The translations under genes were made by a program, and so were the position numbers. The notes beneath the pieces are model-generated. The model had not been told where the DNA came from. It ran no database searches and was given only the letters and a program-made list of their open reading frames with translations. 64,000 nt of DNA from positions 96,001 to 160,000 of IMG/VR virus record IMGVR_UViG_3300014204_000113, one strand, 5' to 3'. The stretch comes from a virus (lineage: Duplodnaviria > Caudoviricetes). Of the stretch, positions 16,661 through 32,291 are shown piece by piece; the first letter of the stretch is position 1, and every line of letters starts with the position of its first letter.

Positions 16661-16765
16661 TGTGGTGTGGTAAGGTGCGGTTGGGTGAGGTATGGTATGG
16701 TCAGGTATGGTCTGGTAAGGTTAGGTGGGGTCGTGTAGGGTGAGGTTTGGTAAGGTATGGTAAGG
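16661..16765 (+). repeat. Array A1: 21 pentamer units of constant GGT plus variable NN (candidate guide RNA)
   Basis: TGTGG TGTGG TAAGG TGCGG TTGGG TGAGG TATGG TATGG TCAGG TATGG TCTGG TAAGG TTAGG TGGGG TCGTG TAGGG TGAGG TTTGG TAAGG TATGG TAAGG. Confidence 0.95.
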
Positions 16766-16770
16766 GTTTG

Positions 16771-16810
16771 GTTGTCATTTTCCAATTAAATCTTATTGGA
16801 AAATGACAAC
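16771..16810 (+). terminator. 16-bp hairpin closing array A1
   Basis: GTTGTCATTTTCCAAT / ATTGGAAAATGACAAC perfect inverted repeat, then AATTTT. Confidence 0.75.
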
Positions 16811-16839
16811 AATTTTGAATATAAAAACTGAATTTAGGA

Positions 16840-17544
16840 ATGCTTAATATGCAAATACCAAATACATTAATTCTTTGTGGTGGTCTTGGTGAAAGACTAA
16901 GACCTCTTACTGATAATCATCAGAAATGTATGTTGCCAGTACAAGGAAGACCATTTCTTGAATATACAGTAGATAAAATTAAACAGTTAGAATTAAACCC
17001 ACCAATTTTCTGTTGTGGACACAAGGTTGATGAAGTAATCAACCATTTTGGAAAAGATACAAATGGATATAAATTTTCATATCGTGCTGATATAAATACT
17101 GGTGCAAGGATTAAAGAAGCATTATCTTTAATTCATTCAGAACATTTCATTGTCTTTAATGGAGATTCATATTGCAATATAGATTATAATTACTTTTGGT
17201 ATATATATAAGGAATTTGTTAATCTTAATGATGATTGTTGTAAAATATTGGTACATAAAAAGAATTCATTATTAGCTTCATATATTCAAACTTCTATATA
17301 TGGTTCTTATGGTGCTGGTATTTATTTTTTTAAGAAATCTTATATAGAAAGTTTAGAATGGAATAATAACCTTTCTATAGAAGATGACATCATACCAAAT
17401 TGCAAGAAGATTTATACTTGTGATACTCCAGAAGAATTTTTTGTAATTGATATTGGGACTAAAGAAAATTATGAGATAGTGAATGATAAGGAGAATAAAT
17501 ATGGAAGGTTTCTTGCCGACGCAAATAAACGGATTGTTAAGTAA
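16840..17544 (+). CDS. Sugar-1-phosphate nucleotidyltransferase (HddC-like)
   Basis: LCGGLGERLRPLT...KCM, NGDS, DIGT motifs. Confidence 0.85.
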   Translation: MLNMQIPNTLILCGGLGERLRPLTDNHQKCMLPVQGRPFLEYTVDKIKQLELNPPIFCCGHKVDEVINHFGKDTNGYKFSYRADINTGARIKEALSLIHSEHFIVFNGDSYCNIDYNYFWYIYKEFVNLNDDCCKILVHKKNSLLASYIQTSIYGSYGAGIYFFKKSYIESLEWNNNLSIEDDIIPNCKKIYTCDTPEEFFVIDIGTKENYEIVNDKENKYGRFLADANKRIVK

Positions 17545-18004
17545 GCCACTAAAAGTGATTCCAGATTTTAGAGGAGAATTTCAAAAAATTAGTTTAAACA
17601 GTCCTTTTGTAGAACAAGATATTGCCACCTCAGTTAATGGAGTTTTGAGAGGATTGCATTATGTAACACAAGGCTATAGAATTTTCACCCCTGTCTTTGG
17701 AAAATTATACTGTGTATTCTTAGATGTTCGGGAGGAGTCCGAAACGCAATATGATTGGTTCCCAATAACAATAAACGATAGCAACAGACAAAGTTTTTTG
17801 ATTTCTCCTTATGTAGCTTGTGGCTATCTAGTACTTTCTAAGACTGCTGTTGTAAATTATGAACTCGAATTCAAATACGATGAATCTAAACAAAGAACGA
17901 TACGTTTTGATGATGAAAGATTTGATATATATTGGCCGGGGAATAAAAAGAATTACATACTTTCAGAGCGTGATTATTTTGTAGATGAAAAGAGGATAAG
18001 GTAA
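17483..18004 (+). CDS. NDP-4-keto-sugar 3,5-epimerase (RmlC-like cupin)
   Basis: DFRGEF, GVLRGLHY, LDVREES motifs. Confidence 0.85.
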   Translation: MIRRINMEGFLPTQINGLLSKPLKVIPDFRGEFQKISLNSPFVEQDIATSVNGVLRGLHYVTQGYRIFTPVFGKLYCVFLDVREESETQYDWFPITINDSNRQSFLISPYVACGYLVLSKTAVVNYELEFKYDESKQRTIRFDDERFDIYWPGNKKNYILSERDYFVDEKRIR

Positions 18005-18008
18005 AAAG

Positions 18009-18329
18009 ATGTCATGTTATGATTGTGGGTTGCCTTATGAAGAAATGCATGATTTTTTAATTCCAAGAGAAATCTGGATTAAAATATCTCCTACTGAGAA
18101 TGACGGAAGTATCTTATGTGCTAATTGTATTGTAAAAAGACTTGAAAAAGGAGGTTTTAAAGATATTCCTGGGGCTTATATGTCTGGCCCAATAAAATCT
18201 GTTTCAGAAGAAACAATGGATATGATTTTACAATTAGAAACAATAAAAAGACAATTTAAAAGATTGTATTCCATGAACAATTTGAAAGGGGCTTTAATGT
18301 ACAGTGTAGAAGAGGAAGCAGTCAAATGA
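18009..18329 (+). CDS. Hypothetical Cys-motif protein
   Basis: CYDC...LCANC motifs. Confidence 0.6.
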   Translation: MSCYDCGLPYEEMHDFLIPREIWIKISPTENDGSILCANCIVKRLEKGGFKDIPGAYMSGPIKSVSEETMDMILQLETIKRQFKRLYSMNNLKGALMYSVEEEAVK

Positions 18330-19306
18330 TAATTAGTAGAACTCCTTATCGCATCAGCTTTCTCGGGGGGGGGTCAGATCACGATGGATGGTTTTCTCTT
18401 CATGGTGGTTGCGTTCTATCTACTACAATAAATAAATATTGTTATATATTAACAAAACCCATAATTAACTTTTTTGGCTATAATTATAAAATAGTTTATA
18501 GAAAAATAGAAAATGTAAACACTATTGATGAAATTGAACATACCACAGCAAAAGCATGTCTTAAATTTTCTGGCATTAAGATTCCTCTAGAGGTGCATCA
18601 TAGTGGAGATGCGCCAGCCAGGTCTGGAATGGCCTCTTCAAGTGCTTATGCAGTCGGATTGTTAAATGCTCTATATGCAATGGAAGGAAGATATGTTTCA
18701 AAAGAGCAATTGGCAAAAGATGCTATCTATGTAGAAAGAATTATGTTAGAAGAGACAGGAGGGCTTCAAGACCAAATTGCAGTATCCATGGGGGGTTTTA
18801 ATAAAATAGAATTCCTAAGTAATGGTTTATATCATGTATCACCAATACCTATAAGCGACAAAAGGTTAGAAGAATTTCAAAATCATTTACTTTTGTTTTA
18901 TTTAAATACTCCTAGAACTGCATCTGACATAGCAAAAACTTTTGTTCCAGATATAGATAGTAAACGTAGACAACTTAGGATTTCTCATGCTTTAGTTGAT
19001 GAAGGTATAAATATTTTATGTTCTGAACAAGATATAAGGCTGTTTGGTGAACTATTACATGAATATTGGATGGAGAAAAGATCGCTTAGTTCAGTAGTAT
19101 CTAACAACACAATAGATGAAATTTATCAAAAAGCCTTGGATAATGGCTCTCTTGGTGGTAAACTTTTAGGAGCAGGAGGCGGAGGCTTTCTATTGTTGTT
19201 TGCGGAACCAGATAAACATAATAAAATTATAGAAGGTTTTAGCGACTTGCTTCATGTTCCGTTTAAGTTTGAAAAAACAGGCACAACAATTATCTTTAAA
19301 GGATAA
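18326..19306 (+). CDS. GHMP kinase, D-glycero-D-manno-heptose-7-phosphate kinase (HddA-like)
   Basis: SRTPYRISFLGGGSD, PARSGMASSS, GGLQDQ, GGKLLGAGGGG. Confidence 0.88.
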   Translation: MIISRTPYRISFLGGGSDHDGWFSLHGGCVLSTTINKYCYILTKPIINFFGYNYKIVYRKIENVNTIDEIEHTTAKACLKFSGIKIPLEVHHSGDAPARSGMASSSAYAVGLLNALYAMEGRYVSKEQLAKDAIYVERIMLEETGGLQDQIAVSMGGFNKIEFLSNGLYHVSPIPISDKRLEEFQNHLLLFYLNTPRTASDIAKTFVPDIDSKRRQLRISHALVDEGINILCSEQDIRLFGELLHEYWMEKRSLSSVVSNNTIDEIYQKALDNGSLGGKLLGAGGGGFLLLFAEPDKHNKIIEGFSDLLHVPFKFEKTGTTIIFKG

Positions 19307-19310
19307 TTAA

Positions 19311-20330
19311 ATGCTCCGAGACCTAGCAATAGTAATACCAACATACAACCGTTCCGCTTTGCTGAACAGAGCATTGTCATTTTATGAAAGAAGCAAATTT
19401 ACTGGATGTATTTATGTGATCGATGGTTCTGATAAAGAAAATGCAAAATTAAACAAAGAACATATAGATAATAAAAATCTAAGAATAAAGTATTTTTATA
19501 ACCAAGAAAGCACCAATGAAGTTATAAGAATGTCAAGAATCAATCATACCATAATAGAAAAATATGTCACTTTTGCTGGTGACGACGATTTTCAACTTCC
19601 TTTAGGTTTGGCACATTGTGTTCATTTTCTAAATAACAATAAAGATTATGATGTTTGTTTTGGGATTAAATTCAACTTTATAATGGAAAATGACAGACCT
19701 AAAATGAATGGATTAAATCTAGGTCATGATTGGGATTACAACAGTCCGTCACAAAGATTTCTTGAATACATGATGACAGGAAATTCAACTAATTATTCTG
19801 TCCATAGAAGATTTATATGGGATAGACTTTTTGACAATATAGATATACCAATTAGATATATAGGTACAGAATTAGTTATGTGTTCAACCACTGCCATCTT
19901 ATCCAGAATAAAAAGATTAAATAGAATAGTCACTTTATATGAAGATAGCGGCTTAAGTTGGCCTCATGAAAAATGCGATACTGGATGTGATTTGCCACCT
20001 ATGTTTCAATTGGTTCATTCTTATGAATGGATAGAATCAGTAGAAAAATTTAGAAATTATATAGTTGATTTATTGATGAAAACAGAAAATTTATCAAAAT
20101 ATGATGCAACGCATATATTTAATAAGGGGTTTGCATTTAGATTGTATTCAATGTTAGAAGGCCAATTTTGTTATAAATATGGGAAAGAATTTACAGAAGG
20201 ACATAAAGAATTTGTTAGGCAAGCAAATAAAGAAAGAGATACTGGAAGAGTTGTTCTATTTGAAGATGATTTAAAATTCATAGAAAAAAATGTTGGTATG
20301 GATGTTAGCTGTTTAAATTTAAAAAGTTGA
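19311..20330 (+). CDS. GT-A fold glycosyltransferase (TIGR00180-like), paralog 1
   Basis: IPTYNR, IDGS, FAGDDDF. Confidence 0.8.
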   Translation: MLRDLAIVIPTYNRSALLNRALSFYERSKFTGCIYVIDGSDKENAKLNKEHIDNKNLRIKYFYNQESTNEVIRMSRINHTIIEKYVTFAGDDDFQLPLGLAHCVHFLNNNKDYDVCFGIKFNFIMENDRPKMNGLNLGHDWDYNSPSQRFLEYMMTGNSTNYSVHRRFIWDRLFDNIDIPIRYIGTELVMCSTTAILSRIKRLNRIVTLYEDSGLSWPHEKCDTGCDLPPMFQLVHSYEWIESVEKFRNYIVDLLMKTENLSKYDATHIFNKGFAFRLYSMLEGQFCYKYGKEFTEGHKEFVRQANKERDTGRVVLFEDDLKFIEKNVGMDVSCLNLKS

Positions 20331-20340
20331 TTAAATGAAT

Positions 20341-20415
20341 TTTGGTCCGGTATGGTTTGGTGAGGTATGGTGAGGTGCGGTAAGGTGAGGTCAGGTTTGG
20401 TGGGGTAAGGTATGG
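20341..20415 (+). repeat. Array A2a: 15 pentamer units GGT+NN (candidate guide RNA)
   Basis: TTTGG TCCGG TATGG TTTGG TGAGG TATGG TGAGG TGCGG TAAGG TGAGG TCAGG TTTGG TGGGG TAAGG TATGG. Confidence 0.95.
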
Positions 20416-20442
20416 GTTTCAACTATCTTCAAAGTTTTGCTT

Positions 20443-20522
20443 TTTGGTATGGTCAGGTATGGTTAGGTAAGGTATGGTACGGTTCGGCGGGGTTTGGTTC
20501 GGTAAGGTAAGGTATGGTAAGG
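20443..20522 (+). repeat. Array A2b: 16 pentamer units GGY+NN (candidate guide RNA)
   Basis: TTTGG TATGG TCAGG TATGG TTAGG TAAGG TATGG TACGG TTCGG CGGGG TTTGG TTCGG TAAGG TAAGG TATGG TAAGG. Confidence 0.95.
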
Positions 20523-20549
20523 TAGATGGGAGAGTCTATCTCCCATCTA
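20523..20549 (+). terminator. 11-bp hairpin closing array A2b
   Basis: TAGATGGGAGA-gtcta-TCTCCCATCTA, then AATTTTAAAC. Confidence 0.75.
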
Positions 20550-20568
20550 AATTTTAAACGGAGGAATA

Positions 20569-22179
20569 ATGCGCGTTCTTTTTGTGAATGAAAAATGGGT
20601 CCGCAACGATCCGACTTTACGAGAGGCAAGAGGCACAGTAGAAAGCTACCTAGAAAGCGGTTTTGGCACGGCATCAGAATTTCATTGCGATGAATATTTT
20701 TATAACTACAAGAGGGATTGGAATTTTCCTCTGATAGAAAAGATAATTGAAGAAAGACCAGATGCGATTTTTTTTATGTGGATTAACAGCCAGTACAATC
20801 CTTCATTAGATGTATTTTCTATTATTCATAAAATGGGAATACCCATAGTTTGTTGGTGGGGAGATTTTTCGTTTGAAGGTTCTGTAAGAAACGCTCAAAA
20901 TTTATCTCCATTTATATCCACACATTTGATTGCAGACACTCCAATTGCTTTAACAAATGATGTCCATATAGAAAAATACAAACATATTTGGCCTACACCA
21001 ATTAACCAATTCTTTTTTAAAGGAGAAGAAAAAGACAGAATTATTCCAGTGTCTTTTCCAGGTGGAACTATTGAAGGTGGAAATAAAGGACCAAGAGAAA
21101 AGTACATAAAATATTTAATTGAAAATGGAGTAGGTGTTTTTGTGGGAGGAACAAGAAAAGAAGAAACAACTATGCAATATGCTGATACGCTTAGAAAATC
21201 TCAAATAGTCATAAACTTTTCACCTCTAGGTCAATATGGTTGCCCGTTGAAAGGAAGGTCTTTTGAAGCGATATGGTGTGGCTCTTTATTGATGGAGCCG
21301 TCTGGTTCCTTTCTTGAATACCATTTTACACCATATTCTGATTATATTCCTTATGATAATGAAAATGATTTATTAAATAAGATCAGATATTTTAGCGCAA
21401 ATAAGGAAGAAAGAGAATCAATCGCAAATCGTGGACATGAAAGAGCAATTCAAAAATACAACCCATTTTCTTTTTGGAATAAAATATTTAATGATTATTT
21501 AATTCCATATGATTTACATCTTGATATGCAGAATATACGCGGATTATTGGATTTCTTCATCTCTAAAAAGAAAGAAGTCTTTTGTAATGATTTTGTTTTC
21601 ATTAAAGAAATTTCATATTTAATTGAAAACTTGAATATCAAAGAATTTTGGGAAACTGGAAGTTATTTGGGTCATTCAACTGATTTCATCAAAAGTTTAT
21701 TCCCAAAATTGGACGTGTTCAGTTGCGACATTCACGAAGGCTATCTTGAAACAGCAAAAAATAATTGTCCTTTGGTAGATTACAAACTAATTGATTCTGT
21801 TAATTTTCTAAAAGAAAGAATTGACAATTATTCTGTCCCAACTTTTGTTTTTCTCGATGCACATGGTCATGGTGGTGGTTTGCCATTAGAAAAAGAATTG
21901 CAACTGATAGGGAATTCTGAAAAGAAATATGTACTATGTATTCATGATTGCAGACTTCCGAAAAGACCTATTTTTGGATGGGATAATTATAATGGAGTTG
22001 ATATTTCTGTTGAACTAATAGAAAAGGTTTTGAAGAAAACTGATTGTATTTTTGATATCTTTATACCATCAAATATTTATAATCATGACCCGCTAAGAGG
22101 AAGATGTTATGTTTTCGTAAATTGGTTTGAAAATTATACTATTGATTCTAAACTATTTACAAAATTGGAGGATATTTAA
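20569..22179 (+). CDS. Fusion of a CgeB-like GT-B glycosyltransferase and a SAM-dependent methyltransferase-like domain
   Basis: YADTLRKSQIVINF...KGRSFEAIWCG...IANRG (Glyco_trans_1_2-like); C-terminal WETGSYLGHST and FLDAHG. Confidence 0.75.
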   Translation: MRVLFVNEKWVRNDPTLREARGTVESYLESGFGTASEFHCDEYFYNYKRDWNFPLIEKIIEERPDAIFFMWINSQYNPSLDVFSIIHKMGIPIVCWWGDFSFEGSVRNAQNLSPFISTHLIADTPIALTNDVHIEKYKHIWPTPINQFFFKGEEKDRIIPVSFPGGTIEGGNKGPREKYIKYLIENGVGVFVGGTRKEETTMQYADTLRKSQIVINFSPLGQYGCPLKGRSFEAIWCGSLLMEPSGSFLEYHFTPYSDYIPYDNENDLLNKIRYFSANKEERESIANRGHERAIQKYNPFSFWNKIFNDYLIPYDLHLDMQNIRGLLDFFISKKKEVFCNDFVFIKEISYLIENLNIKEFWETGSYLGHSTDFIKSLFPKLDVFSCDIHEGYLETAKNNCPLVDYKLIDSVNFLKERIDNYSVPTFVFLDAHGHGGGLPLEKELQLIGNSEKKYVLCIHDCRLPKRPIFGWDNYNGVDISVELIEKVLKKTDCIFDIFIPSNIYNHDPLRGRCYVFVNWFENYTIDSKLFTKLEDI

Positions 22180-23156
22180 TGATTGGCGTTTTTATACCCA
22201 CTTGCAATAGGCCAGAGTTTTTGCAAAGAGCATTATTGTATTATAATAGCAAATCTGAATTCTTACAAAATGTAGTTTTTCATCTATATGATGGTTCTAG
22301 TAAAGAATCTTATAACTTAAATAAAAAAGAAGTTAGAAAATACAAAAATTTAAACATAAACCATGTATGGTATGAAAATCAGAAAAATGAATTTCACAGA
22401 CTTATAGAATCGACTAAAAACATTCAAGAAGAGTATATTTTACAAGTAGGTGATGATGATTTTATAATTGTTGAAAGTCTTAAACCAGCACAGATATTTT
22501 TAGACTCAAATAAAGATTATGTTGCTTGTAGTGGTTTAAGAATGTCTTTTGTATTGGAAAATCCTGATGAAAAACAAACCAAAGGAACTAACCTTCACAT
22601 AACAAGGTCTGTACCAGGACCATATTGGCCTGTTAATGACCCTATAGGATGTTTTAGGTCGTATATGAGAAGTGGAATTCCAATGCAACACTTTCTTGTC
22701 AGAAATGAAGTATATAAGAAAATGTATGCGCATTTGGAAAGAGAAGAATTTAAAACGCCATTACTATCCCAAGATTTGCTTCCTTGCGCGATTCTGTCTT
22801 TAAGCGGCAATATCAAAAGATTGGATTTTGTTTTTTCATTTGCGCGCCAAGAAAGCAACTTGTCTACATATAAATATTTAGACGAGATAATGACTGATGA
22901 TAGTTTTTCTAATAACTTTGTGTTGACTAAAGAATTATTAGTAGATAAGATTAAAGATTTTGTAGGATTGGATGAAGCAAAAAAGATAGTTGATGGCGAA
23001 TTTGTAATAAGATTTATTCAATTGCTAGAATGGACTAGAGATGTAAAATATAAACCGCAAGGAAGGTATCCATTAGAAGGGCATGATTTTATTCCTTCTA
23101 CCCAAGTTTATTATCACAATATAATTAAAGAATTATTTCAATTGTGTAAGAGGTAA
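22179..23156 (+). CDS. GT-A fold glycosyltransferase (TIGR00180-like), paralog 2
   Basis: IPTCNR, YDGS, VGDDDF. Confidence 0.8.
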   Translation: MIGVFIPTCNRPEFLQRALLYYNSKSEFLQNVVFHLYDGSSKESYNLNKKEVRKYKNLNINHVWYENQKNEFHRLIESTKNIQEEYILQVGDDDFIIVESLKPAQIFLDSNKDYVACSGLRMSFVLENPDEKQTKGTNLHITRSVPGPYWPVNDPIGCFRSYMRSGIPMQHFLVRNEVYKKMYAHLEREEFKTPLLSQDLLPCAILSLSGNIKRLDFVFSFARQESNLSTYKYLDEIMTDDSFSNNFVLTKELLVDKIKDFVGLDEAKKIVDGEFVIRFIQLLEWTRDVKYKPQGRYPLEGHDFIPSTQVYYHNIIKELFQLCKR

Positions 23157-23162
23157 TTTATT

Positions 23163-24518
23163 TTGTTAAATGTATTATTGATAAATCCACAAACACCCAA
23201 TTATATATCTAACAAAGAATACATAATGCCTCCTTCTTTGTTGCATTTGTCTCATCATTTGCAATCCACCATGACTGCGAATGTGGATATATTGGATTAC
23301 AATACTTGGAGAGCAGCGCCTTTACATTCCATAGATAATTTTGATGAATATGATTATGTTGGAATAACTAATCTATTTTCTGGACATTTCCAATCAACAA
23401 TGGAAATTGCCAAAACAATCAAAGAAAAAAGTCCCAAAACAAAGATTGTTGTTGGCGGAATACATCCAACTATTTTTCATAAAGACATTATAGATAATTG
23501 CGAATATATAGATTATGTTATTATAGGCGAAGGCGAATATTCATTCAGAAAATTATTGACTAACGAATCTACTGATGGTATTTGTTATAGAGTTGGCAAG
23601 AAAACTTTTGTAGAACCAAAAACTTGTTTCATAGAAGATATTAATACTGTAGCTCCTCCAATATTGGGTTATCAAAGTATTGATTTTAACGACTATGCTT
23701 ATAGTAGAAATTTTTGGTATAATCCAAAAGGCTTTGATTTAACACATTCTGTCGAAGTACCGATTTTAACTAGCAGAAGTTGTCCAAACAGGTGTAATTT
23801 TTGTTCTATGTTTTTGGTGATGGGACCAAAAATAAGATTGAGAAATCCATATATAGTAGTTAATGAAATAGAATGGCTGTATAGAGAACATGGTGTTGTG
23901 ATGTTCACCATGATGGATGACAATATCACTTTGGTTAAATCACATATTACGACTATCTGTAAAGAAATAATAAAGCGAAAATTAGATATATCTTGGCAAA
24001 CACCAAATGGGTTGATGATAAGAACATTAACACCAGATGTGATAGACCTTATGGTGAGTAGTGGATGGTATCGTTCAATGATTGCTATTGAGTCTGGTAA
24101 TAGTTATATCAGAAACGAAGTGATGGGCAAGAGGGTTTCTGATAAAGACATTTATAAAGTGGTGGAATATATAAAGAAAAAACATAATCATGTTTTTCTT
24201 CGTGGCCTTTATATCATGGGGATGGCTGAAGACGATGGGACAACACTGCAAGACTCATTGGACATGATAAAAAACTTACAAACTAATACTGATTCAGTTG
24301 CTAATATCATGCCATTTCCAAAAACGAAAGTATTTGAACAAGCGGTGAGAGACAATTTATTTTTTGAAGATGTAGATATTAAAAATTTGTGGCGAGAAGA
24401 AAGGCTTGATTACAATGACAATAAAAAGTTTATAATAAAACCCTATAAAATGACTTTAGAAGAATTAAAAGATTGGAGGGTTAAATTTGATACAGCAATT
24501 AAAAATAAAAGCAAATGA
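23163..24518 (+). CDS. B12-binding radical SAM protein (class B methylase-like)
   Basis: VVGGIHPT, GEGE, SRSCPNRCNFC (CxxxCxxC), DDN, IESG. Confidence 0.9.
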   Translation: MLNVLLINPQTPNYISNKEYIMPPSLLHLSHHLQSTMTANVDILDYNTWRAAPLHSIDNFDEYDYVGITNLFSGHFQSTMEIAKTIKEKSPKTKIVVGGIHPTIFHKDIIDNCEYIDYVIIGEGEYSFRKLLTNESTDGICYRVGKKTFVEPKTCFIEDINTVAPPILGYQSIDFNDYAYSRNFWYNPKGFDLTHSVEVPILTSRSCPNRCNFCSMFLVMGPKIRLRNPYIVVNEIEWLYREHGVVMFTMMDDNITLVKSHITTICKEIIKRKLDISWQTPNGLMIRTLTPDVIDLMVSSGWYRSMIAIESGNSYIRNEVMGKRVSDKDIYKVVEYIKKKHNHVFLRGLYIMGMAEDDGTTLQDSLDMIKNLQTNTDSVANIMPFPKTKVFEQAVRDNLFFEDVDIKNLWREERLDYNDNKKFIIKPYKMTLEELKDWRVKFDTAIKNKSK

Positions 24519-25215: not shown

Positions 25216-26032
25216 ATTTTTCCAAACGATAGGTAACGCGTATAATTCCGGCAGGAATGATTTAGTAATTCTAACTGCTGATATGGGAGCAAAAGCCCTA
25301 AACAAATTTAAAAAAGACCCAAACTTTCTTATCAATACAGGGCCTTGTGAGCAGTTAGTAATCTCTATGGGGGCTGGATTAGCATTACAGAAAAAACATC
25401 CTTATTGTTATGGCATCACACCATTTATTTCTTTAAGAGCATTAGAACAAATAAGAATAATGTGTTCTATGAATTTACCTGTAACTATAGTAGGAGTAGG
25501 AGCAGGCTTATCATATGACACGGCAGGGTTGACTCATCATGCGACAGAAGATTTGAACATAATTCGTTGCATCCCAAATATAACTATTTGTAATGTTTCT
25601 TCTTTAGAGATGGCGGAATATTATGCAAAAGTTTCTTTGGATTTTGACAAACCTCTGTATATCAGGCTCGATAAATATTCCACACACCTTGATAATGTAA
25701 CTGATTATGGTTGGAAGATAATCAAATATCCTAAGAAGAATTATCCATTTGTTGTTGCCACAGGTACTATTGTTGATTATTTATGGAGAAACTTGTCATA
25801 TGATTATGGTTTCATGGAGATATTTCAATTTCCTATTGATGAAAGAGTGGTCTCTTGTATCTTAAAGAATTTTGATGTTATTTCCGTTGAAGAAGGGTAC
25901 AAAGTAGGAGGATTGGGTGATTCGTTATCTTTTCTTCCTGATGTAAAGAAAATTGGTTTCAATAACTTCTGTGAAGCTAAACCAAGAGAAGAGTATTGGA
26001 AAATTTTACTAAGAGAGGTATTAAATGCTTAA
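25196..26032 (+). CDS. Transketolase-like enzyme, C-terminal (pyrimidine-binding) subunit
   Basis: LTADMG, GPCEQ, RALEQIR, GLTHHATED, EEGYKVGGLG. Confidence 0.88.
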   Translation: MTTQRDRFFQTIGNAYNSGRNDLVILTADMGAKALNKFKKDPNFLINTGPCEQLVISMGAGLALQKKHPYCYGITPFISLRALEQIRIMCSMNLPVTIVGVGAGLSYDTAGLTHHATEDLNIIRCIPNITICNVSSLEMAEYYAKVSLDFDKPLYIRLDKYSTHLDNVTDYGWKIIKYPKKNYPFVVATGTIVDYLWRNLSYDYGFMEIFQFPIDERVVSCILKNFDVISVEEGYKVGGLGDSLSFLPDVKKIGFNNFCEAKPREEYWKILLREVLNA

Positions 26033-27674
26033 AGACTCATTGACTCTTTACATTCCTACAATGAATCGCTCACAATTTCTCAATCGTTCCTTAAAATATT
26101 ATAATAACGTGAAATTTGATGGTACGATTCTCATTGGTGACAGCAGCAACAAAGAAGAAAAAAAGTTAAACGAAGAAGTAATAAATAAATATCCAGATTT
26201 AGATATTAATTACCATCATTTAAAACTCCCATCTGACCATCACGACGCATTAAAGACAAACCGACTTTTGGATAAAATTAAAACGCCATATATAACTTTT
26301 GCTGGCGATGATGATTTTCAAATACCTAACGGTCTTAAAATGTGTACTGAATTTCTTAATTATTCACCAGATTATGTTGCAGCACATGGTCATAGATTAA
26401 ATTTTACGATAGATAATACAGTAAATGGAAATGTTATAGCCTTGGATTCACACCCAGGATATGATTGGACTAATGAAGATGACCCAATTAAAAGATGGCA
26501 AGAATATCTGAGATGTGGAGTAGCTACTACATATTATGTACATAGGACAGAAAATTGGAAAAAGTATTATTCCTATTCACATCTAGCTAAAAGCAATTAC
26601 ATTGGTAATGAATTGATTCCATGTTCTTTATGTGTCTTGTCTGGTAAAATTAAAAGAATTGAATGTTTATCCACGGCATTTCAAAGAGATAATCCTATTA
26701 GAGAATTTTCATTTGTTAAGACTACTTTATGGGATTTGATTAATGGCGAATATTGGAGAGATTCTGTAAGGTTTTTTGAAGAAGCAGTTACGTCTATATT
26801 GTCTGATAAATTTGAAGTTAAACAAATTAAAGAATTGTTTTATCAAGAATTTTGGTATCACTGTCTGTTGATTATGAATGGGCAATTCAATGGCAGATAT
26901 GGTGAAAAAAAAGATGAACCAACTACACGAATTTTAGACTTATCTACCATGAGTGAAGATGACGATTTCTATCCGATCCATCAAGTTTTGATAGAAAATT
27001 CTAATGCTGAAATTCTTAGTAATTATTTGAAGAAGATACAAAAATTGGATATAAGAGAAGGTTCAACAAATGACGATTTTATGACATTAATAAACTTAGC
27101 AAAATCTGTGGAAAAGAATGGGATACAAGCAGTGGAAATTGGTTCTTGGAAAGGTGGGACTGCTGGCGCAATAGGACAAGTGGTTAAGGAAAATAAAGGT
27201 AAGTTGTATTGTTGCGACCCTTGGGCGAACGAAACTTGCGATGCAGACCATTCAGATATATTGGAAATATTTAAAAAGAATATCTCTGAATTAGAGTTAG
27301 AAGACAATGTTGTTATTATAAGAGAGCCATCACGAGAAGCGTTTAAACATTTTGAAGATGAATCTCTTGATATTGTGTTTCTGGATGGGCTTCATATGTA
27401 TCCATATATTTATCCTGATGTTGAAAACTTCTATCCTAAAGTCAAGAAAGGCGGAATAATTGCTGGACATGATTTAAATGTACGATATGAAACTCTTAAT
27501 AGTGAACAATGGAAAGAAATAGATGAAAATATAAATGTTAATTGTGTCACTGTTAAATCATTAGGTAGACAAGTCCATTGCGGAGTAGCAAGGGCTGTTT
27601 ATGACTACTTTGGCAGTGATTATAATTCTTCTGACAACCCAATGAACGCGGTTTGGTGGGTGGTAAAAGAATAA
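26025..27674 (+). CDS. GT-A glycosyltransferase (paralog 3) fused to a class I SAM methyltransferase
   Basis: IPTMNR, GDSS, FAGDDDF; C-terminal VEIGSWKGGT, FLDGLH, GGIIAGHD. Confidence 0.85.
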   Translation: MLKDSLTLYIPTMNRSQFLNRSLKYYNNVKFDGTILIGDSSNKEEKKLNEEVINKYPDLDINYHHLKLPSDHHDALKTNRLLDKIKTPYITFAGDDDFQIPNGLKMCTEFLNYSPDYVAAHGHRLNFTIDNTVNGNVIALDSHPGYDWTNEDDPIKRWQEYLRCGVATTYYVHRTENWKKYYSYSHLAKSNYIGNELIPCSLCVLSGKIKRIECLSTAFQRDNPIREFSFVKTTLWDLINGEYWRDSVRFFEEAVTSILSDKFEVKQIKELFYQEFWYHCLLIMNGQFNGRYGEKKDEPTTRILDLSTMSEDDDFYPIHQVLIENSNAEILSNYLKKIQKLDIREGSTNDDFMTLINLAKSVEKNGIQAVEIGSWKGGTAGAIGQVVKENKGKLYCCDPWANETCDADHSDILEIFKKNISELELEDNVVIIREPSREAFKHFEDESLDIVFLDGLHMYPYIYPDVENFYPKVKKGGIIAGHDLNVRYETLNSEQWKEIDENINVNCVTVKSLGRQVHCGVARAVYDYFGSDYNSSDNPMNAVWWVVKE

Positions 27675-27886
27675 ATGAACACTTATATATTTTTTAGAGA
27701 ATTAAATAAATATATATTTAATGAAAAGTGCGATGAAAAAAGATCATGTAAAGATTGTGATTATCAACAATGTTGTTTCTATACTAAATGTTTGAGAAGA
27801 TATAGCAACAAACATATTTTAGAAACATTTAAAATTGTATATGATTTATAAAAAATTATTTCTAATCTACTAAGAAGGAATTATTA

Positions 27887-29272
27887 ATGATTGATTTTTT
27901 GTTTATCAAACCTGGAAATCAAAAAGTCTTATATGCAGAAACTTCTGCTTTTAATTTAACGGCAATTGAGCCTCCATTTTGGCCACTACTTCTTGCATCG
28001 TTTCTCACAAGACAAAACATTCCTTCTAGAATTATAGACTTGGAAGTCCAAAGCATTGATTCTTTGAATCACATGTTAATAGACAACAAACCAAAATTTA
28101 CAGTAATTTGTGTCAGCGGGCATAATCCAAACGCGAGTATCATGAGCATGGCTGGTTTAGATGATTTATGCAAAAATATAAAAGATGTTTGTGCAACTAC
28201 TAAAATCATTCTTCATGGTTTATATCCCTCTTCTTGTCCAACAAAAGTTTTAGAAAAACATAAATTGGTAGATGAAATTCTAATGAAGGAGGGTTTTTTA
28301 AGTCTAGGTCATTTGATGGGCTACAAAAGAACAGAACCTATATCAATAAATGATATAGGAAAAATTAATTGGTCTTTAATAGACATAGCTAAATACCGCG
28401 CTCATAATTGGCATCTGTTTGGAAACATTCACAATAGGTCTCCATATGGAATTGCTTTCACTTCTTTTGGTTGTCCTCACAATTGCGATTTTTGTTGTGT
28501 AAATTTAATGTATAGTAAAGTACAATTAAGAGATATAGATTTGGTATTCCAAGACATTAAAAATCTATATGATAGAGGCGTAAAAAATTTTAAATTTATG
28601 GACGAGTTGTTTTTAATGCACAAGGGTAGGGTACAACAATTATGCTCAATGTTAATTGCTAATAAAATGCAAGACATCAATGGTTGGGCTTACGCTAGAA
28701 CAGATTCTATAGATGAAGATATAATTACACTAATGAAAAATGCTGGAGTGAAATGGCTAGGGCTGGGTTATGAGAGTGGTTCGCAATTAATATTAGATTC
28801 TTCTGATAAAAAACAAAGTTTAAAAAAAGCATATCAAGCTACAGAAATATGCAAAAAGGTTGGGATGAATATTTGTGGTAATTTCGTATTTGGGTTGGCA
28901 GATGATAATTATGAAACCATGGAAGCCACTTCTAAATTAGCTATTGACTTACAACCAGAATGGGCTAATTATAATGTGGTTTTTGCTTTTCCTAGGACGA
29001 AGTTATATGATAAGGTGAAAAATGAGCCTTGGTTTAATGAACCAACTGAGTATGAGCAGTATTCTCAACATGGCTATTCCTGCACACCAATGGGAACAAA
29101 ATATCTTAGCCCAAAAGAAGTCTTGGAATTTAAGGATGAAGCATTCAGAGAATTTTACCAGAACGAGAATTATCTGAGGATGTTAGAGGTAAAATTTGGG
29201 GTTGAAACCAGAGAATATGTAGCAAATTCACTAATTTACTATCCAAAAAGAAAACTTTATGATTTGACCTAA
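27887..29272 (+). CDS. B12-binding radical SAM protein
   Basis: SFGCPHNCDFC, DELF, GYESG, with an N-terminal cobalamin-binding-like domain. Confidence 0.88.
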   Translation: MIDFLFIKPGNQKVLYAETSAFNLTAIEPPFWPLLLASFLTRQNIPSRIIDLEVQSIDSLNHMLIDNKPKFTVICVSGHNPNASIMSMAGLDDLCKNIKDVCATTKIILHGLYPSSCPTKVLEKHKLVDEILMKEGFLSLGHLMGYKRTEPISINDIGKINWSLIDIAKYRAHNWHLFGNIHNRSPYGIAFTSFGCPHNCDFCCVNLMYSKVQLRDIDLVFQDIKNLYDRGVKNFKFMDELFLMHKGRVQQLCSMLIANKMQDINGWAYARTDSIDEDIITLMKNAGVKWLGLGYESGSQLILDSSDKKQSLKKAYQATEICKKVGMNICGNFVFGLADDNYETMEATSKLAIDLQPEWANYNVVFAFPRTKLYDKVKNEPWFNEPTEYEQYSQHGYSCTPMGTKYLSPKEVLEFKDEAFREFYQNENYLRMLEVKFGVETREYVANSLIYYPKRKLYDLT

Positions 29273-29278
29273 AAGGAC

Positions 29279-29307
29279 TTGCTGGCCAAGAAATTTTGAA
29301 GTATAAT
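29279..29307 (+). promoter_or_regulatory. Sigma70-like promoter upstream of the segment containing array A3 and the RAMP-like gene
   Basis: TTGCTG-17 nt-TATAAT. Confidence 0.6.
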
Positions 29308-29326
29308 CTTAATAAGGAGAAGAAAT

Positions 29327-29533
29327 TTGACAGAAAAATTAATTTCAATGAAGGGTGGTAACAAACCTTCAATAACAAGAGAAACAATAAGATTAATGAA
29401 AGAGGAATTACCATACATCCTTGAATATTTTCCTATTTATGCTGAAATGACAAAAGCTAAATTTGAGGCTTTAAAAGAGAAAGGGTTTACTGAAATTCAG
29501 GCATTAGAATTGTGCAAGGGTTTTATGTTATAA
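29327..29533 (+). CDS. Hypothetical protein
   Basis: AAGGAG RBS; GFTEIQALEL motif. Confidence 0.6.
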   Translation: MTEKLISMKGGNKPSITRETIRLMKEELPYILEYFPIYAEMTKAKFEALKEKGFTEIQALELCKGFML

Positions 29534-29542
29534 GGAGAAATT

Positions 29543-29725
29543 ATGGGTGATTATGCTTTGCCTTCTATTTATGAAAGATGCGGCTGGAAAAAAGACGAGG
29601 TTTATCTTCATTCCTTGCTTGAAAGATGTGCAGAAGGACTTGCAGCAGCAACTCAATATGGCGCAGGTAATTGGTCTGAACTAATTAAAGAAATTTATAG
29701 GGTGATAAATGTCCAAGAAGACTAA
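29543..29725 (+). CDS. Hypothetical protein
   Basis: AAGGAG RBS, short ORF. Confidence 0.55.
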   Translation: MGDYALPSIYERCGWKKDEVYLHSLLERCAEGLAAATQYGAGNWSELIKEIYRVINVQED

Positions 29726-30410
29726 ATCCAAGAAACCTAAAGGTATCTCTCCAGAAGAATTCTTAAAAAACCTTAACACTCTAGATTTGTTGGATGGGAA
29801 TTTTTCTGATAATGATGCCTTAGCTCTTATGAAATTAGCTAAAGAATCAATCAAAGATAAAAGTGGACCTTTTAATTTTTTAGAAATTGGAACATGGAAG
29901 GGGAAATCACTTATTTGTCTCTCTGTTATAATAAGTAAATTCCCAGAAAGTAAAATTTTTGCTATAGACCATTTTAAAGGTACATTTGGAACAAACGAAG
30001 AACAACTTGCTAAAACTAATGACATATTGACAACTTGTAAAAATAATTTAAAAATAGTAAATGCTAGTGATATTGTTTGTCTATTAAATATGAATTACTT
30101 TGATGCAATCAAAATATTAAAGCAAAAATTTTTTGACTTTATATATATTGATATGGACAATAGTTATCAAGTAATGAAAAGTGTTTTGTGTGATTCTAGA
30201 AATTTAATTAAAAGTGGAGGAATGATATGTGGAAGAAATTTAATTGCAGATTATCTAGATGTAAAAGAAATTATAGACTCTAATCTTAATAAAGAATATT
30301 TAGAAGAATCAAAAATGCATCCTGGAATTATACGATCTGTCTATGATGTTTTTGCAAATAAATATCAAAAAATGGATAATAGTTCTTTTTGGTATTGGAT
30401 TAATAATTAA
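29709..30410 (+). CDS. Class I SAM-dependent methyltransferase (Methyltransf_24-like)
   Basis: LEIGTWKGKS, IDHF, FIYID, GGMICG; paralogous to the C-terminus of 26025-27674. Confidence 0.8.
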   Translation: MSKKTKSKKPKGISPEEFLKNLNTLDLLDGNFSDNDALALMKLAKESIKDKSGPFNFLEIGTWKGKSLICLSVIISKFPESKIFAIDHFKGTFGTNEEQLAKTNDILTTCKNNLKIVNASDIVCLLNMNYFDAIKILKQKFFDFIYIDMDNSYQVMKSVLCDSRNLIKSGGMICGRNLIADYLDVKEIIDSNLNKEYLEESKMHPGIIRSVYDVFANKYQKMDNSSFWYWINN

Positions 30411-30435
30411 TAATATTTGGTAATATCCAACTGGA

Positions 30436-30530
30436 TATTGTGTTGTAATGTTCTGTGTTGTGTGGCGCTGTAGTGTAATGTTAAGTCCTGTAGTGTGGCG
30501 TAGTGTGTTGTTATGTGTTCTATTCTAAGG
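30436..30530 (+). repeat. Array A3: 19 pentamer units with mainly TGT constant triplet plus variable NN, directly upstream of the RAMP-like gene
   Basis: TATTG TGTTG TAATG TTCTG TGTTG TGTGG CGCTG TAGTG TAATG TTAAG TCCTG TAGTG TGGCG TAGTG TGTTG TTATG TGTTC TATTC TAAGG, then hairpin GGATTC-tgtatt-GAATCC (30531-30548). Confidence 0.9.
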
Positions 30531-30574
30531 GGATTCTGTATTGAATCCAAAATAAATTTAAGGAGAATTAAATA

Positions 30575-31141
30575 ATGAAAATTAAAGTTACAATTCAAGG
30601 AACAGTTCCAATTTTATTTAATCGTTTTGCAGAAGAGAATGAAGTTAAAGTTGCTTCTGGAATTAATCCAGTTCAAGGAGGACAAAGAGGAACGCCTAGA
30701 GAACAAGCAGAAAAGAAACTATATCAAGACGTGGATGGGAATTTGTTTCTTCCAAGTCCTATGTTATTTTCTTGTTTAGTAGATGCTGGTAAATTCCATA
30801 AAGTGGGAAGAAATAAAGTTACGACTCAGAAGACTTCTTTAGTTCCTGCCGGTATATCTGTTGAAGAATTAATCATTCCGTTTAATACTAAAGATTGGGA
30901 AATTGATTCTAGAAGCGTTGTGATACCATCTACTGGTGGTAGAATCATGTGTCACAGACCCCGGCTTGATGAGTGGCAATTAACTTTCACTTTGGATGTT
31001 GATACAACAATGTTTGATCCTAAGTTTGTTAGGACTCTTATGGATGATGCAGGCAAGAAATGTGGCTTGGGTGATTATAGACCTAATCGTAAAGGGCCAT
31101 TTGGTAAATTTGTTGTGATTAATTGGGAAGAAGAAAAATAA
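30575..31141 (+). CDS. Stand-alone RAMP/Cas7-like RNA-binding protein (candidate effector of the pentamer arrays)
   Basis: N-terminal strand IKVTIQGTVPILF, LFLPSPMLFSCL (compare the IPGSSxKG helix of Cas7-group RAMPs), C-terminal Gly-rich loop GLGDYRPNRKGPFGKF; AAGGAG RBS; no other cas genes in the window. Confidence 0.7.
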   Translation: MKIKVTIQGTVPILFNRFAEENEVKVASGINPVQGGQRGTPREQAEKKLYQDVDGNLFLPSPMLFSCLVDAGKFHKVGRNKVTTQKTSLVPAGISVEELIIPFNTKDWEIDSRSVVIPSTGGRIMCHRPRLDEWQLTFTLDVDTTMFDPKFVRTLMDDAGKKCGLGDYRPNRKGPFGKFVVINWEEEK

Positions 31142-31169
31142 TAAAAAATAAGATCAAGGATGGAGAATT

Positions 31170-31475
31170 ATGAAATTTGAATTAATGAAAGAATTAAACG
31201 AATTAATTCTTTCTATTGACAACCCGGTTGAAACAGCAACAGATTGGCTTTTTGATTATCAAACCTATAGTTATAATTATATAAGCGCAGAAACAAAAAA
31301 TAGAGTTGATAAACAAGAAGAATGGTTAAATTTACATCAACAACCTATTCTTTTAGGCGAGGAAATACAAACTGAAGAAGAAACGCTTGAGGAAATACTT
31401 GATGAACTTGAATCTTGGCTTCCTGCTCTTCAATCTGCTATTTGGGCAGTAAAAGAACTAAAGAAGGAATATTGA
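31170..31475 (+). CDS. Acidic hypothetical protein
   Basis: GGAG RBS; 101-aa Glu-rich ORF. Confidence 0.6.
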   Translation: MKFELMKELNELILSIDNPVETATDWLFDYQTYSYNYISAETKNRVDKQEEWLNLHQQPILLGEEIQTEEETLEEILDELESWLPALQSAIWAVKELKKEY

Positions 31476-31485
31476 GGGTAAATAG

Positions 31486-32042
31486 ATGACAGTATGGTTC
31501 AGTGGAGACCAGCATCTTTCGCATGACTCTAAACATGGAGGAATAATCCAATATTGTAATCGTCCATTTGTAAGTTTGAAAGAAATGAATTCAGTAATTA
31601 TTGATAGAATGTTAGAAAAAGTTCATAAAGGAGATACATTATATTCTTTAGGCGATTTAACTTTCAAAAAAGATGTTGCTTTAAAGTTTGTTGAAATAAT
31701 TAAAAAAAATAACATCAATTTAATTTATATAAGAGGGAATCACGATAAAAATATCCTTCCTATTTTGAACACAGAAGGAATAAAAGTATATGATTTATTA
31801 ACAATAAATATTGCAAAACAACCTATAGTTTTGTGCCACTATGCGATGAGGACTTGGGACAATGGAGTTGCCATAACTCTTGGCAACTCCATTGTCACAG
31901 TCACCACACACTATCTCCGCAAGGTAAACAACTAGATTGTGGGGTGGATGGATTTGATTTTTATCCAGTTTCTTATGATACGGTAAGAAACATTATGAAG
32001 ACAAGACCTGATAATTTTAATTTAACGAAAGGTAGAATTTAA
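31486..32042 (+). pseudogene. Calcineurin-like metallophosphoesterase split by a frameshift near 31860
   Basis: GDQH, LGD, GNHD and LCHYAM lie in one frame; the continuation SWQLHCHSH...DCGVD lies in the -1 frame. Confidence 0.75.
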
Positions 32043-32186
32043 AATTCCTACTAGAAACTACCTCTCAGAAGGTTATTTTCACGCCTGAAAATGCGTAGAT
32101 ATCACCCAGAATGAACGATAATTTAAAAGAGGTAGTTTGATAGGTAATTTTAAAAAACGACCAGTTTTGAGGCTAATAATGATGAT

Positions 32187-32261
32187 TGTGGTCTGGTTAG
32201 GTTAGGTGAGGTGAGGTCAGGCTGGGTGGGGTGCGGTAAGGTGTGGTATGGTAGGGCGAGG
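32187..32261 (+). repeat. Array A4: 15 pentamer units GGY+NN (candidate guide RNA)
   Basis: TGTGG TCTGG TTAGG TTAGG TGAGG TGAGG TCAGG CTGGG TGGGG TGCGG TAAGG TGTGG TATGG TAGGG CGAGG. Confidence 0.95.
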
Positions 32262-32291
32262 GAACTGACTCATTTACAGATGAGTCAGTTC
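32262..32291 (+). terminator. 12-bp hairpin closing array A4
   Basis: GAACTGACTCAT-ttacag-ATGAGTCAGTTC, then ATTTTAAAC. Confidence 0.75.

What the first reader, a model, noticed from the sequence alone, without database searches (positions are those of the whole stretch)
16661..32291. Candidate phage RNA-guided system: five (GGY/TGT + NN)n arrays plus a lone RAMP/Cas7-like gene
Seen in sequence: five intergenic arrays on the transcribed strand (A1 16661-16765, A2a 20341-20415, A2b 20443-20522, A3 30436-30530, A4 32187-32261; 15-21 units each, 86 in total). They keep a perfect 5-nt register without indels. A triplet is fixed (GGT/GGC; mostly TGT in A3) while the intervening dinucleotide varies freely and differs between arrays. 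Four end in a hairpin, and after A1, A2b and A4 it is followed by ATTTT. Slippage microsatellites homogenise their units, so this looks like a scaffold carrying information in the NN positions. A3 directly precedes a 188-aa protein with RAMP hallmarks. Established: Cas7-family RAMPs polymerise along guide RNA with a fixed nucleotide step. Inference: each array is a small RNA coated by one protomer per pentamer, with the triplet bound and the NN pairs read as a non-contiguous guide against DNA or RNA, for example of competing phages or host genes. No cas1/2/3/6 or CRISPR array is present. From memory, and unverified here, this matches recently reported viral 'VIPR'-type systems. The dispersed multi-guide layout inside a glycosylation operon is notable in any case.
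Basis: partly seen in the sequence, partly recalled or inferred. Interest (0 to 1): 0.97.

Follow-up and report, generated by a model that had tools for sequence, protein, structure and literature searches.

The report
VIPR guide arrays in a phage
This stretch of a 188-kb uncultured phage holds a member of the VIPR family of RNA-guided DNA-silencing systems, first published in 2026: one small Cas7-like protein and five 5-base-repeat guide RNAs, at least two of which sit beside the phage's own copy of the gene whose rival versions they spell.

Summary
Five strictly 5-nt-periodic arrays (four GGY-NN, one TGT-NN) lie on the + strand, and nothing comparable occurs elsewhere in the window.

The 188-aa ORF at 30575-31141 is a Vipr protein. 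It matches the solved SUSP1 Vipr chain (profile E 2e-10), has a Cas7/Csm3 fold, and keeps the GGY-contact residues.

The system was published in 2026 in bioRxiv preprints from the Doudna lab, so the kind is known.

New here:
- The guides are scattered over 16 kb of a sugar-pathway cluster.
- Under the published 1-nt-skip code, A1 and A2b spell variant alleles of the neighbouring gene, with the skipped base on the codon wobble position.
- The phage's own copies match worse (11/20 decoded residues; 19/22 nt) than relatives' copies (15/20; 21/22 nt in an array-less relative).
- A sister phage carries arrays at the same sites with partly different NN content. It also shows a 94-100% identity island around A1.

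Limits:
- Targets of A2a, A3 and A4 were not found.
- The genome has two more Vipr paralogs, so which protein loads which array is open.
- Other agents of this scan reported the same logic for other arrays of this genome.

The parts
15722..16660 (+). NAD-dependent sugar epimerase/dehydratase gene. Its last 20 codons (16598-16657) are the resident, mismatched counterpart of guide A1.
   Evidence: Pfam PF01370. A1 under the 1-nt skip has its single best hit in the 188-kb genome here, 28/40, with the skipped base on the wobble position. This is a divergence hotspot against the five closest homologs.
16664..16763 (+). vrRNA array A1: 20 GGT-NN units. Units 1-18 are guide and the last two (AT, AA) are constant.
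   Evidence: 100% identical in sister phage L066
16771..16810 (+). 16-bp hairpin followed by AATTTT: 3' tail or terminator of A1
   Evidence: z -5.7
20344..20413 (+). vrRNA array A2a: 14 GGT-NN units, target not found. A 17-nt leader just upstream is shared with the array next to paralog V1.
   Evidence: The array at the same site in sister L066 has wholly different NN.
20446..20525 (+). vrRNA array A2b: 16 GGY-NN units. Units 1-11 are guide, antisense to the downstream gene.
20524..20548 (+). 10-bp hairpin followed by AAATTTT: tail or terminator of the A2a-A2b pair
   Evidence: z -5.6
20569..22179 (+). Glycosyltransferase-like gene. Codons 62-72 (20752-20784) are the resident counterpart of guide A2b.
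   Evidence: Pfam PF13524. Own allele 19/22, relative L068 21/22, wobble-aligned.
30439..30528 (+). Variant array A3: 16 mostly TGT-NN units plus TCT-AT and TCT-AA, then GGG. Target not found.
   Evidence: TGT arrays flank Vipr homologs in 13 of 62 viral loci.
30575..31141 (+). vipr gene (paralog V3): 188-aa minimal RAMP
   Evidence: PDB 36pp_D 'SUSP1 Vipr protein', E 1.2e-6 and profile 2.2e-10. AF2 pLDDT 85.5. Foldseek top hits are Cas7 of types VII/III and Cas7-11. D167/Y168/R169 and R128 align with SUSP1 D177/W178/R179 and R138.
31170..31475 (+). 101-aa acidic ORF in the position of an accessory (vap) gene; no evidence that it is one
   Evidence: No Pfam, PHROG or PADLOC hit. No homolog beside other vipr genes.
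32190..32259 (+). vrRNA array A4: 14 GGY-NN units, target not found
32262..32291 (+). 13-bp hairpin followed by ATTTT: tail or terminator of A4
   Evidence: z -7.2

Best explanation
The locus is a VIPR system of a 188-kb phage with direct terminal repeats. The 188-aa protein is a Vipr. By analogy with the solved SUSP1 complex, protomers polymerise one per pentamer on the array transcripts, hold each constant triplet, and present the NN dinucleotides. The NN pairs bind double-stranded DNA while skipping every third base (inferred from homology, not shown here). The arrays are vrRNAs: 11-18 variable guide units, then 2-4 constant units, then in three cases a strong hairpin plus a T-run. The guides are scattered, unlike the clustered arrays of the published type II loci. 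At least A1 and A2b lie directly beside the phage's own copy of the gene they address, and they spell a different allele of it, with the skipped base on the codon wobble. The likely function is interference with related phages that carry the matching alleles during co-infection, while the resident allele is protected by changes at first and second codon positions. Tight linkage keeps guide and resistant allele together. Whether the outcome is silencing or cutting, and which of the three Vipr paralogs loads which array, is not established.
For: Vipr identity: searches (solved SUSP1 Vipr; Cas7 fold), 82 with 80 (contact residues conserved), 88 (distant homologs in Felixounavirus-type, Mycobacterium and Pseudomonas phages). 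Family size: over 1000 near relatives and 2536 50%-identity clusters at E<=1e-3. Co-occurrence: about 50 of 62 viral loci with a homolog have period-5 arrays within 2.5 kb on the same strand. Code: only the 1-nt skip puts A1's unique genome-wide best hit on the last 20 codons of the adjacent gene, and A2b's on the adjacent downstream gene; both are wobble-aligned. Foreign allele: A1 decodes to 15/20 residues of relatives' C-termini against 11/20 for the own gene, and the own C-terminus is a divergence hotspot. A2b units 1-11 match 21/22 in L068, the only hit of a degenerate pattern in all of IMG/VR. L068 is a syntenic relative without arrays, against 19/22 in the own gene. Two protein alleles, P0241 and P0242, imply 21/22. 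Sister phage L066 has arrays at the same sites with replaced or extended NN content, and one of its guides fits this phage's GT2 gene better (19/22) than its own (17/22). A 94-100% identity island surrounds A1 in a 62-90% background.
Against: No target was found for A2a, A3 or A4 in the own genome, in 68 fetched loci, or in exact-pattern scans of viral and prokaryote collections. No perfect DNA target was found for A1, and its evidence is at protein level. The gap between own and rival match for A2b is small (19 vs 21 of 22), and 19/22 exceeds the 80% threshold the published work used for targets. The L068 hit was found with a pattern built from protein alleles, so its 21/22 is partly by construction. 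Transcription, RNP formation and silencing are untested. The tails are not conserved and are not the pseudoknot of the studied clade. No accessory gene is recognisable beside this vipr.
Confidence: 0.8

Rival explanations
1. The window is not one system. The GGT arrays (A1, A2a, A2b, A4) are solo guides loaded by the distant paralogs V1 or V2 (genome 83150-83647 and 87191-87646), and the local Vipr V3 uses only the adjacent TGT array A3.
For: A2a shares a 17-nt leader, and A1/A2a share the terminal units, with the array directly upstream of V1. V1 is closer to SUSP1 Vipr (E 1.9e-14, same 4-residue G-loop deletion). TGT arrays track a distinct Vipr clade (SH-aLRT 100), and V3 shares residue F103 only with that clade.
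Against: V3 lies outside the TGT clade, and most of its relatives flank GGY arrays. At the other discriminating positions V3 resembles the GGY group or neither group. A4 (GGY) lies 1 kb from V3. A3 ends with the same NN (AT, AA) and GGG as the GGT arrays.
Confidence: 0.3
2. RNA-guided homing: the guide plus the adjacent resistant allele is a selfish cassette. Vipr with a nuclease partner (the DUF559/Vsr-like protein beside V1) cuts the rival allele in a co-infected cell, and repair from the attacker's genome copies the guide and resistant allele into the rival.
For: The guide is 4 nt (A1) and 44 nt (A2b) from the gene it addresses. An identity island of about 500 bp around A1 between two phages that are otherwise about 83% identical. 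Arrays are present or absent at gene boundaries among relatives. A DUF559 nuclease is encoded beside V1. The published types III-V have nuclease partners.
Against: No nuclease lies next to V3 or the solo arrays. The studied VIPR silences rather than cuts. The identity island could reflect ordinary recombination or selection. Only one array-less relative was examined at one site.
Confidence: 0.2
3. Autoregulation: the arrays tune the phage's own neighbouring genes through imperfect pairing.
For: A2b fits its own downstream gene 19/22, above the 80% cut-off used in the literature. The arrays are on the sense strand inside the operon.
Against: Relatives' alleles fit better than the resident ones for both decoded guides. 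A2a, A3 and A4 have no resident match above shuffled background. The resident site of A1 is unusually diverged.
Confidence: 0.1
4. Non-functional slippage microsatellites or G-quadruplex-forming DNA.
For: The spacing of GG runs could allow two-tetrad quadruplexes (inference only).
Against: NN is highly varied while the register is perfect. A1 is conserved base for base in a sister phage. The same kind of array flanks Vipr homologs in dozens of unrelated viral contigs. The decoded content matches coding sequence in frame.
Confidence: 0.02

Closest known systems
VIPR systems, type II exemplar Escherichia phage SUSP1 (bioRxiv 10.64898/2026.04.26.720920; structures in 10.64898/2026.04.26.720927, PDB 36pp)
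   Same: Minimal RAMP protein homologous to the solved Vipr. GGY-NN vrRNAs of similar length. 1-nt-skip, wobble-aligned matches to coding DNA on either strand. Phage-encoded, aimed at competing mobile elements. No cas genes or CRISPR array.
   Different: Alignment to SUSP1 Vipr is weak and covers only residues 50-180 (phmmer E 1.2e-6). No recognisable vap neighbour. Tails are different hairpins plus T-runs, not a conserved pseudoknot. Arrays are scattered over 16 kb and sit beside the resident homolog of their target rather than clustered at the vipr gene. There are three paralogs and 13 arrays in one genome. Which of the seven published types this is could not be determined, because the supplements are not held.
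Non-canonical VIPR repeat patterns (WGT/NN, TGH/NN and others) in bioRxiv 10.64898/2026.10.21.760802
   Same: A3 is a TGT-NN array beside a Vipr-like gene. I find the same type beside 13 of 62 homologs.
   Different: Here TGT and GGY arrays coexist within 2 kb of one vipr gene, and A3 keeps the terminal NN and GGG of the GGT arrays.
Solo or orphan vrRNAs of satellites and VIPR-null phages (bioRxiv 10.64898/2026.10.15.759431)
   Same: Guides stand apart from any vipr gene. Self-match is lower than match to competitors.
   Different: Those lie at the site of a deleted vipr-vap1 or in satellites, and they target vipr, vrRNAs, satellites or host REP elements. These lie inside a metabolic operon of a VIPR-positive phage and address alleles of the flanking gene.
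Class 1 CRISPR backbone subunits (Cas7/Csm3, Cas7-11)
   Same: Fold (Foldseek prob 1.0, TM about 0.5-0.6). Polymerisation on guide RNA with periodic base flipping (published).
   Different: No CRISPR repeats, no Cas5/6/10/11, no adaptation genes. 5-nt period with 2 read bases instead of 6-nt period with 5 read bases.
Homing endonuclease genes and TnpB-type homing cassettes
   Same: The aggressor element is tightly linked to a resistant version of its own target site. Identity island at the insertion.
   Different: Resemblance of layout only. No cutting is shown, and recognition is by Vipr-vrRNA.

Membership tests
VIPR | Vipr protein: minimal single-RRM RAMP with G-loop and thumb, homologous to described Viprs | tested here: met
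   PDB SUSP1 Vipr hit, E 1.2e-6 and profile 2.2e-10. AF2 model pLDDT 85.5, Cas7 top hits. The G-loop motif with D167/Y168/R169 and thumb R128 aligns with the published GGY contacts.
VIPR | vrRNA: tandem YNNGG (GGY-NN) pentamers, at least 4 units, NN hypervariable | tested here: met
   Four GGY arrays of 14-20 units and one TGT variant. NN content is replaced between sister phages while the scaffold is kept.
VIPR | Arrays co-occur with vipr homologs | tested here: met
   About 50 of 62 IMG/VR loci with a homolog have period-5 arrays within 2.5 kb on the same strand.
VIPR | Conserved structured 3' tail after the repeat tract | tested here: inconclusive
   Constant terminal units and GGG are shared. 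Strong hairpins follow A1, A2b and A4 only, with unrelated sequences and no pseudoknot evidence. No Rfam family matches.
VIPR | Targets follow the 1-nt-skip rule, mostly wobble-aligned in coding DNA | tested here: met
   Met for A1 and A2b only: skip 1, not 0, 2 or 3, gives the adjacent-gene hits, both wobble-aligned; 21/22 in L068. A2a, A3 and A4 have no target found.
VIPR | No self-target at 80% NN match or above | tested here: inconclusive
   Full arrays: best self matches are 70% (A1) and 69% (A2b). If only guide units 1-11 of A2b count, the self match is 86%.
VIPR | Accessory vap gene next to vipr | tested here: not met
   The 101-aa neighbour has no family hit and no homolog at other vipr loci, and no conserved neighbour exists across the family. 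A DUF559 nuclease lies beside paralog V1 elsewhere in the genome. The papers say 'typically', and some systems lack it.
VIPR | vrRNAs are expressed and co-purify with Vipr; binding represses the target | not testable with these tools
   Needs RNA sequencing, pull-down and reporter assays.
CRISPR-Cas class 1 | CRISPR repeat-spacer array and further cas genes (Cas5/6/10/11, Cas1-2) | tested here: not met
   No repeat-spacer array in the TRF output of the window. The neighbours are sugar-pathway, methyltransferase and phosphatase genes. No PADLOC hit.

The most novel reading that the evidence does not exclude
Each scattered vrRNA together with the adjacent resistant allele is an RNA-guided homing (gene-drive-like) cassette. 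In mixed infections Vipr, possibly with the DUF559 nuclease encoded beside paralog V1, disables or cuts the rival phage's allele. Recombinational repair then copies the guide and resistant allele into the rival, so guides spread gene by gene through a phage population.
Probability: 0.2. Interest if true: 0.85.

Novelty: new variant of a known kind. Interest (0 to 1): 0.55.

Why it matters
VIPR itself is already described, so the main claim of the finding is not a discovery. The value here is the deployment. A large uncultured phage with three Vipr paralogs spreads its guides through the genome and places them next to the resident, mismatched copy of the gene they address. Related phages show turnover of guide content at the same sites.

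The three VIPR preprints I read do not use the words allele or homing, and they do not describe guides beside the resident copy of their target. If it holds, VIPR is used for allele-level warfare between close relatives at ordinary metabolic genes, not only against satellites and prophage regulators. Linkage of guide and resistant allele would then be a selectable unit. It also offers a natural test set for mismatch tolerance: 19/22 tolerated in self against 21/22 in a presumed target.

Tried and rejected
- **Exact full-length 1-nt-skip patterns.** A1, A2b and A4 gave nothing in IMG/VR. I later saw that the last 2-4 units are constant, so these three scans could not have succeeded.
- **Guide-only patterns.** A4 (units 1-11) and A2a (units 1-12) gave nothing in IMG/VR. 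A3 (units 1-12) and A4 gave nothing in 185,579 prokaryote species genomes. This is some evidence against host-gene targets, but only exact matches were tested.
- **Close relatives of the epimerase.** None in IMG/VR. No relatives of the epimerase or the glycosyltransferase in cultured phages.
The best local match was 17/32, rank about 145 genome-wide, so it is not above background.
- **Guides against 62 unrelated Vipr loci, to see whether they target rival vipr genes.** Nothing above shuffles.
- **Assigning V3 to GGY or TGT specificity by phylogeny or contact residues.** Unresolved. The tree is the quick one, because the careful search did not finish.
- **Other dead ends.** No Rfam family in the region. 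The sigma-70 promoter scan was uninformative.
- **Tool limits.** The sister phage's record is not held for whole-record search, so its V3/A3/A4 region was not seen.
Full report
**1. The observation**

Reading the four regions and scanning every 5-nt register on both strands confirms five arrays on the + strand.

| Array | Coordinates | Units |
|---|---|---|
| A1 | 16664-16763 | 20 (one TGT among GGT) |
| A2a | 20344-20413 | 14 |
| A2b | 20446-20525 | 16 |
| A3 | 30439-30518 | 16, mostly TGT, continuing with two TCT units to 30528 |
| A4 | 32190-32259 | 14 |

- There are no indels.
- The NN positions are varied.
- No comparable run exists elsewhere in the 64-kb window.
- At 35% G+C, chance is excluded.
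- RNA folding gives strong hairpins after A1, A2b and A4 (z -5.6 to -7.2), each followed by A/AA and TTTT. A3 has only a weak hairpin and A2a has none.
- A2a and A2b therefore look like one tandem unit closed by one hairpin.

**2. The protein**

- ORF 30575-31141 (188 aa) has no Pfam or PADLOC family.
- It hits PHROG 4652, of unknown function.
- It directly hits the solved chain annotated 'SUSP1 Vipr protein' (PDB 36pp_D): phmmer E 1.2e-6, and 2.2e-10 with a 31-sequence profile.
- An AlphaFold model (pLDDT 85.5) finds Cas7 subunits of type VII and III complexes and Cas7-11 as best structural matches.
- The structural preprint names the SUSP1 residues that hold GGY. In the HMMER alignment they correspond to V3 D167, Y168, R169 and R128, which are invariant or nearly so in the family.
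- The family is large: over 1000 relatives at 60-80% identity and 2536 50%-identity clusters at E<=1e-3.
- Relatives below 30% identity occur in 148 cultured phages, including the Felixounavirus group to which the published exemplar belongs.

**3. What is known**

A literature search found three 2026 preprints from one laboratory and a fourth that recovers VIPR arrays. Between them they report:
- Vipr protein plus vrRNAs of 9-16 YNNGG repeats with a 3' tail.
- Recognition of double-stranded DNA by the NN pairs with one skipped base.
- Wobble-aligned natural targets in competing mobile elements.
- Seven types with different accessory genes.
- Solo vrRNAs.
- Non-canonical triplets such as WGT or TGH.

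**4. Do homologous loci carry arrays?**

- I fetched 62 IMG/VR loci that encode relatives of this Vipr.
- A strict detector finds arrays beside the gene in 24 of them. A more sensitive one finds them in about 50, always within 2.5 kb on the gene's strand.
- By triplet type: 32 GGY, 13 TGT and 2 TGC.
- Twelve TGT loci form one well-supported Vipr clade in a quick tree. This protein lies outside that clade, unresolved.
- No conserved accessory gene accompanies the family, and the 101-aa ORF downstream has no counterpart elsewhere.

**5. The genome**

- The window lies in a 187,988-bp virus record with direct terminal repeats.
- The record holds 12 GGY arrays plus A3.
- It holds three Vipr paralogs. 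V1 is 37% and V2 27% identical to this one, and V1 is closer to the SUSP1 protein.
- A DUF559 (Vsr-like) nuclease lies beside V1.
- So the RAMP gene is not alone, and which protein loads which array is open.
- A2a shares a 17-nt leader with the array upstream of V1.
- Most arrays, A3 included, end with the same NN (AT, AA) followed by GGG. These terminal units are therefore constant and are not guide.

**6. Targets**

*A1*
- I applied skips of 0-3 bases to the whole genome.
- Only the 1-nt skip puts A1's single best hit on the last 20 codons of the epimerase gene, which ends 4 nt upstream: 28/40, with the skipped base on the wobble position.
- Decoded, A1 fits relatives' C-termini at up to 15/20 residues, against 11/20 for the resident gene.
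- The resident C-terminus is among the most diverged 20-residue windows of the protein against its five closest homologs: rank 5 of 293.

*A2b*
- Units 1-11, read antisense, fit codons 62-72 of the downstream glycosyltransferase-like gene at 19/22, again wobble-aligned.
- Two protein alleles from the big database each imply 21/22.
- A degenerate pattern built from them hit one place in all of IMG/VR. It is the homologous site of a syntenic, 68%-identical relative (L068) that has no arrays in 13 kb: 21/22, local score 19 against a shuffle maximum of 14.

*A2a, A3 and A4*
- These have no match above shuffled background in the genome, in the fetched loci, or in exact scans.

**7. A sister phage**

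- One metagenome scan found a 189.6-kb contig (L066), syntenic at about 83-88% identity.
- It carries arrays at the same intergenic sites and has extra ones.
- A1 and its hairpin are identical base for base apart from one missing unit. They sit in a 94-100% identity island (16408-16907) within a 62-90% background.
- The A2a-site array has entirely different NN content.
- The A2b-site array shares nine units and then has five inserted units.
- The sister-only guide upstream of the GT2 gene fits this phage's allele at 19/22 and its own at 17/22.
- Guide content therefore turns over on a fixed scaffold, and guides again address the flanking gene.

**8. Reading**

The best-supported explanation is a VIPR system whose guides are linked to resistant alleles of their own targets and are aimed at allelic variants in related phages.
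- Shown: protein identity, array anatomy, co-occurrence, and the in-frame gapped matches.
- Inferred: transcription, filament formation, silencing, and the competitive function.

A homing-type spread of guide plus resistant allele fits the layout, the identity island and the nuclease elsewhere in the genome. It remains a minority reading.

Other agents of this scan reported the same logic for other arrays of this genome. I used that as a lead and tested it only on my arrays.

**9. Limits**

- The papers' supplements are not held, so the published type could not be assigned.
- The collection scans are exhausted.

Noticed in passing
window 31486-32042: A metallophosphoesterase gene (PHROG 547) is split between two frames, 31486-31935 and 31833-32042, with the shift near 31860-31875. 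It could be a frameshifted pseudogene, a sequencing error or programmed frameshifting.
   Followed up: partly
L067:2509-2975: In a 3.3-kb metagenome contig of a related phage, the space between the GT2 gene and the start of the glycosyltransferase-like gene holds no arrays. It holds a 467-bp copy of that gene's 3' part (window 21652-22115, 71% identity), which looks like a recombination scar.
   Followed up: no
L066:11124-11228: The sister phage's longer A2b-type array looks composite. Units 1-9 address codons 64-72 of the downstream gene, and units 8-15 fit this phage's codons 22-29 (window 20632-20655) at 15/16.
   Followed up: partly
window 15722-30410: The arrays lie in a phage-borne sugar-nucleotide pathway: epimerase/dehydratase, nucleotidyltransferase, dTDP-sugar 3,5-epimerase-like, GHMP kinase, GT2 and GT1-like transferases, two radical SAM enzymes (one of them B12-binding), split transketolase, and methyltransferases.
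   Followed up: partly
window 47503-48061: A 195-bp tandem repeat of 2-3 copies at 72-75% identity was seen in the TRF output and not examined.
   Followed up: no
L037, L039, L042, L043, L047, L048: In the TGT-array Vipr clade a protein of about 500-725 aa lies directly downstream of vipr in six loci. It is a candidate accessory gene of that clade.
   Followed up: no
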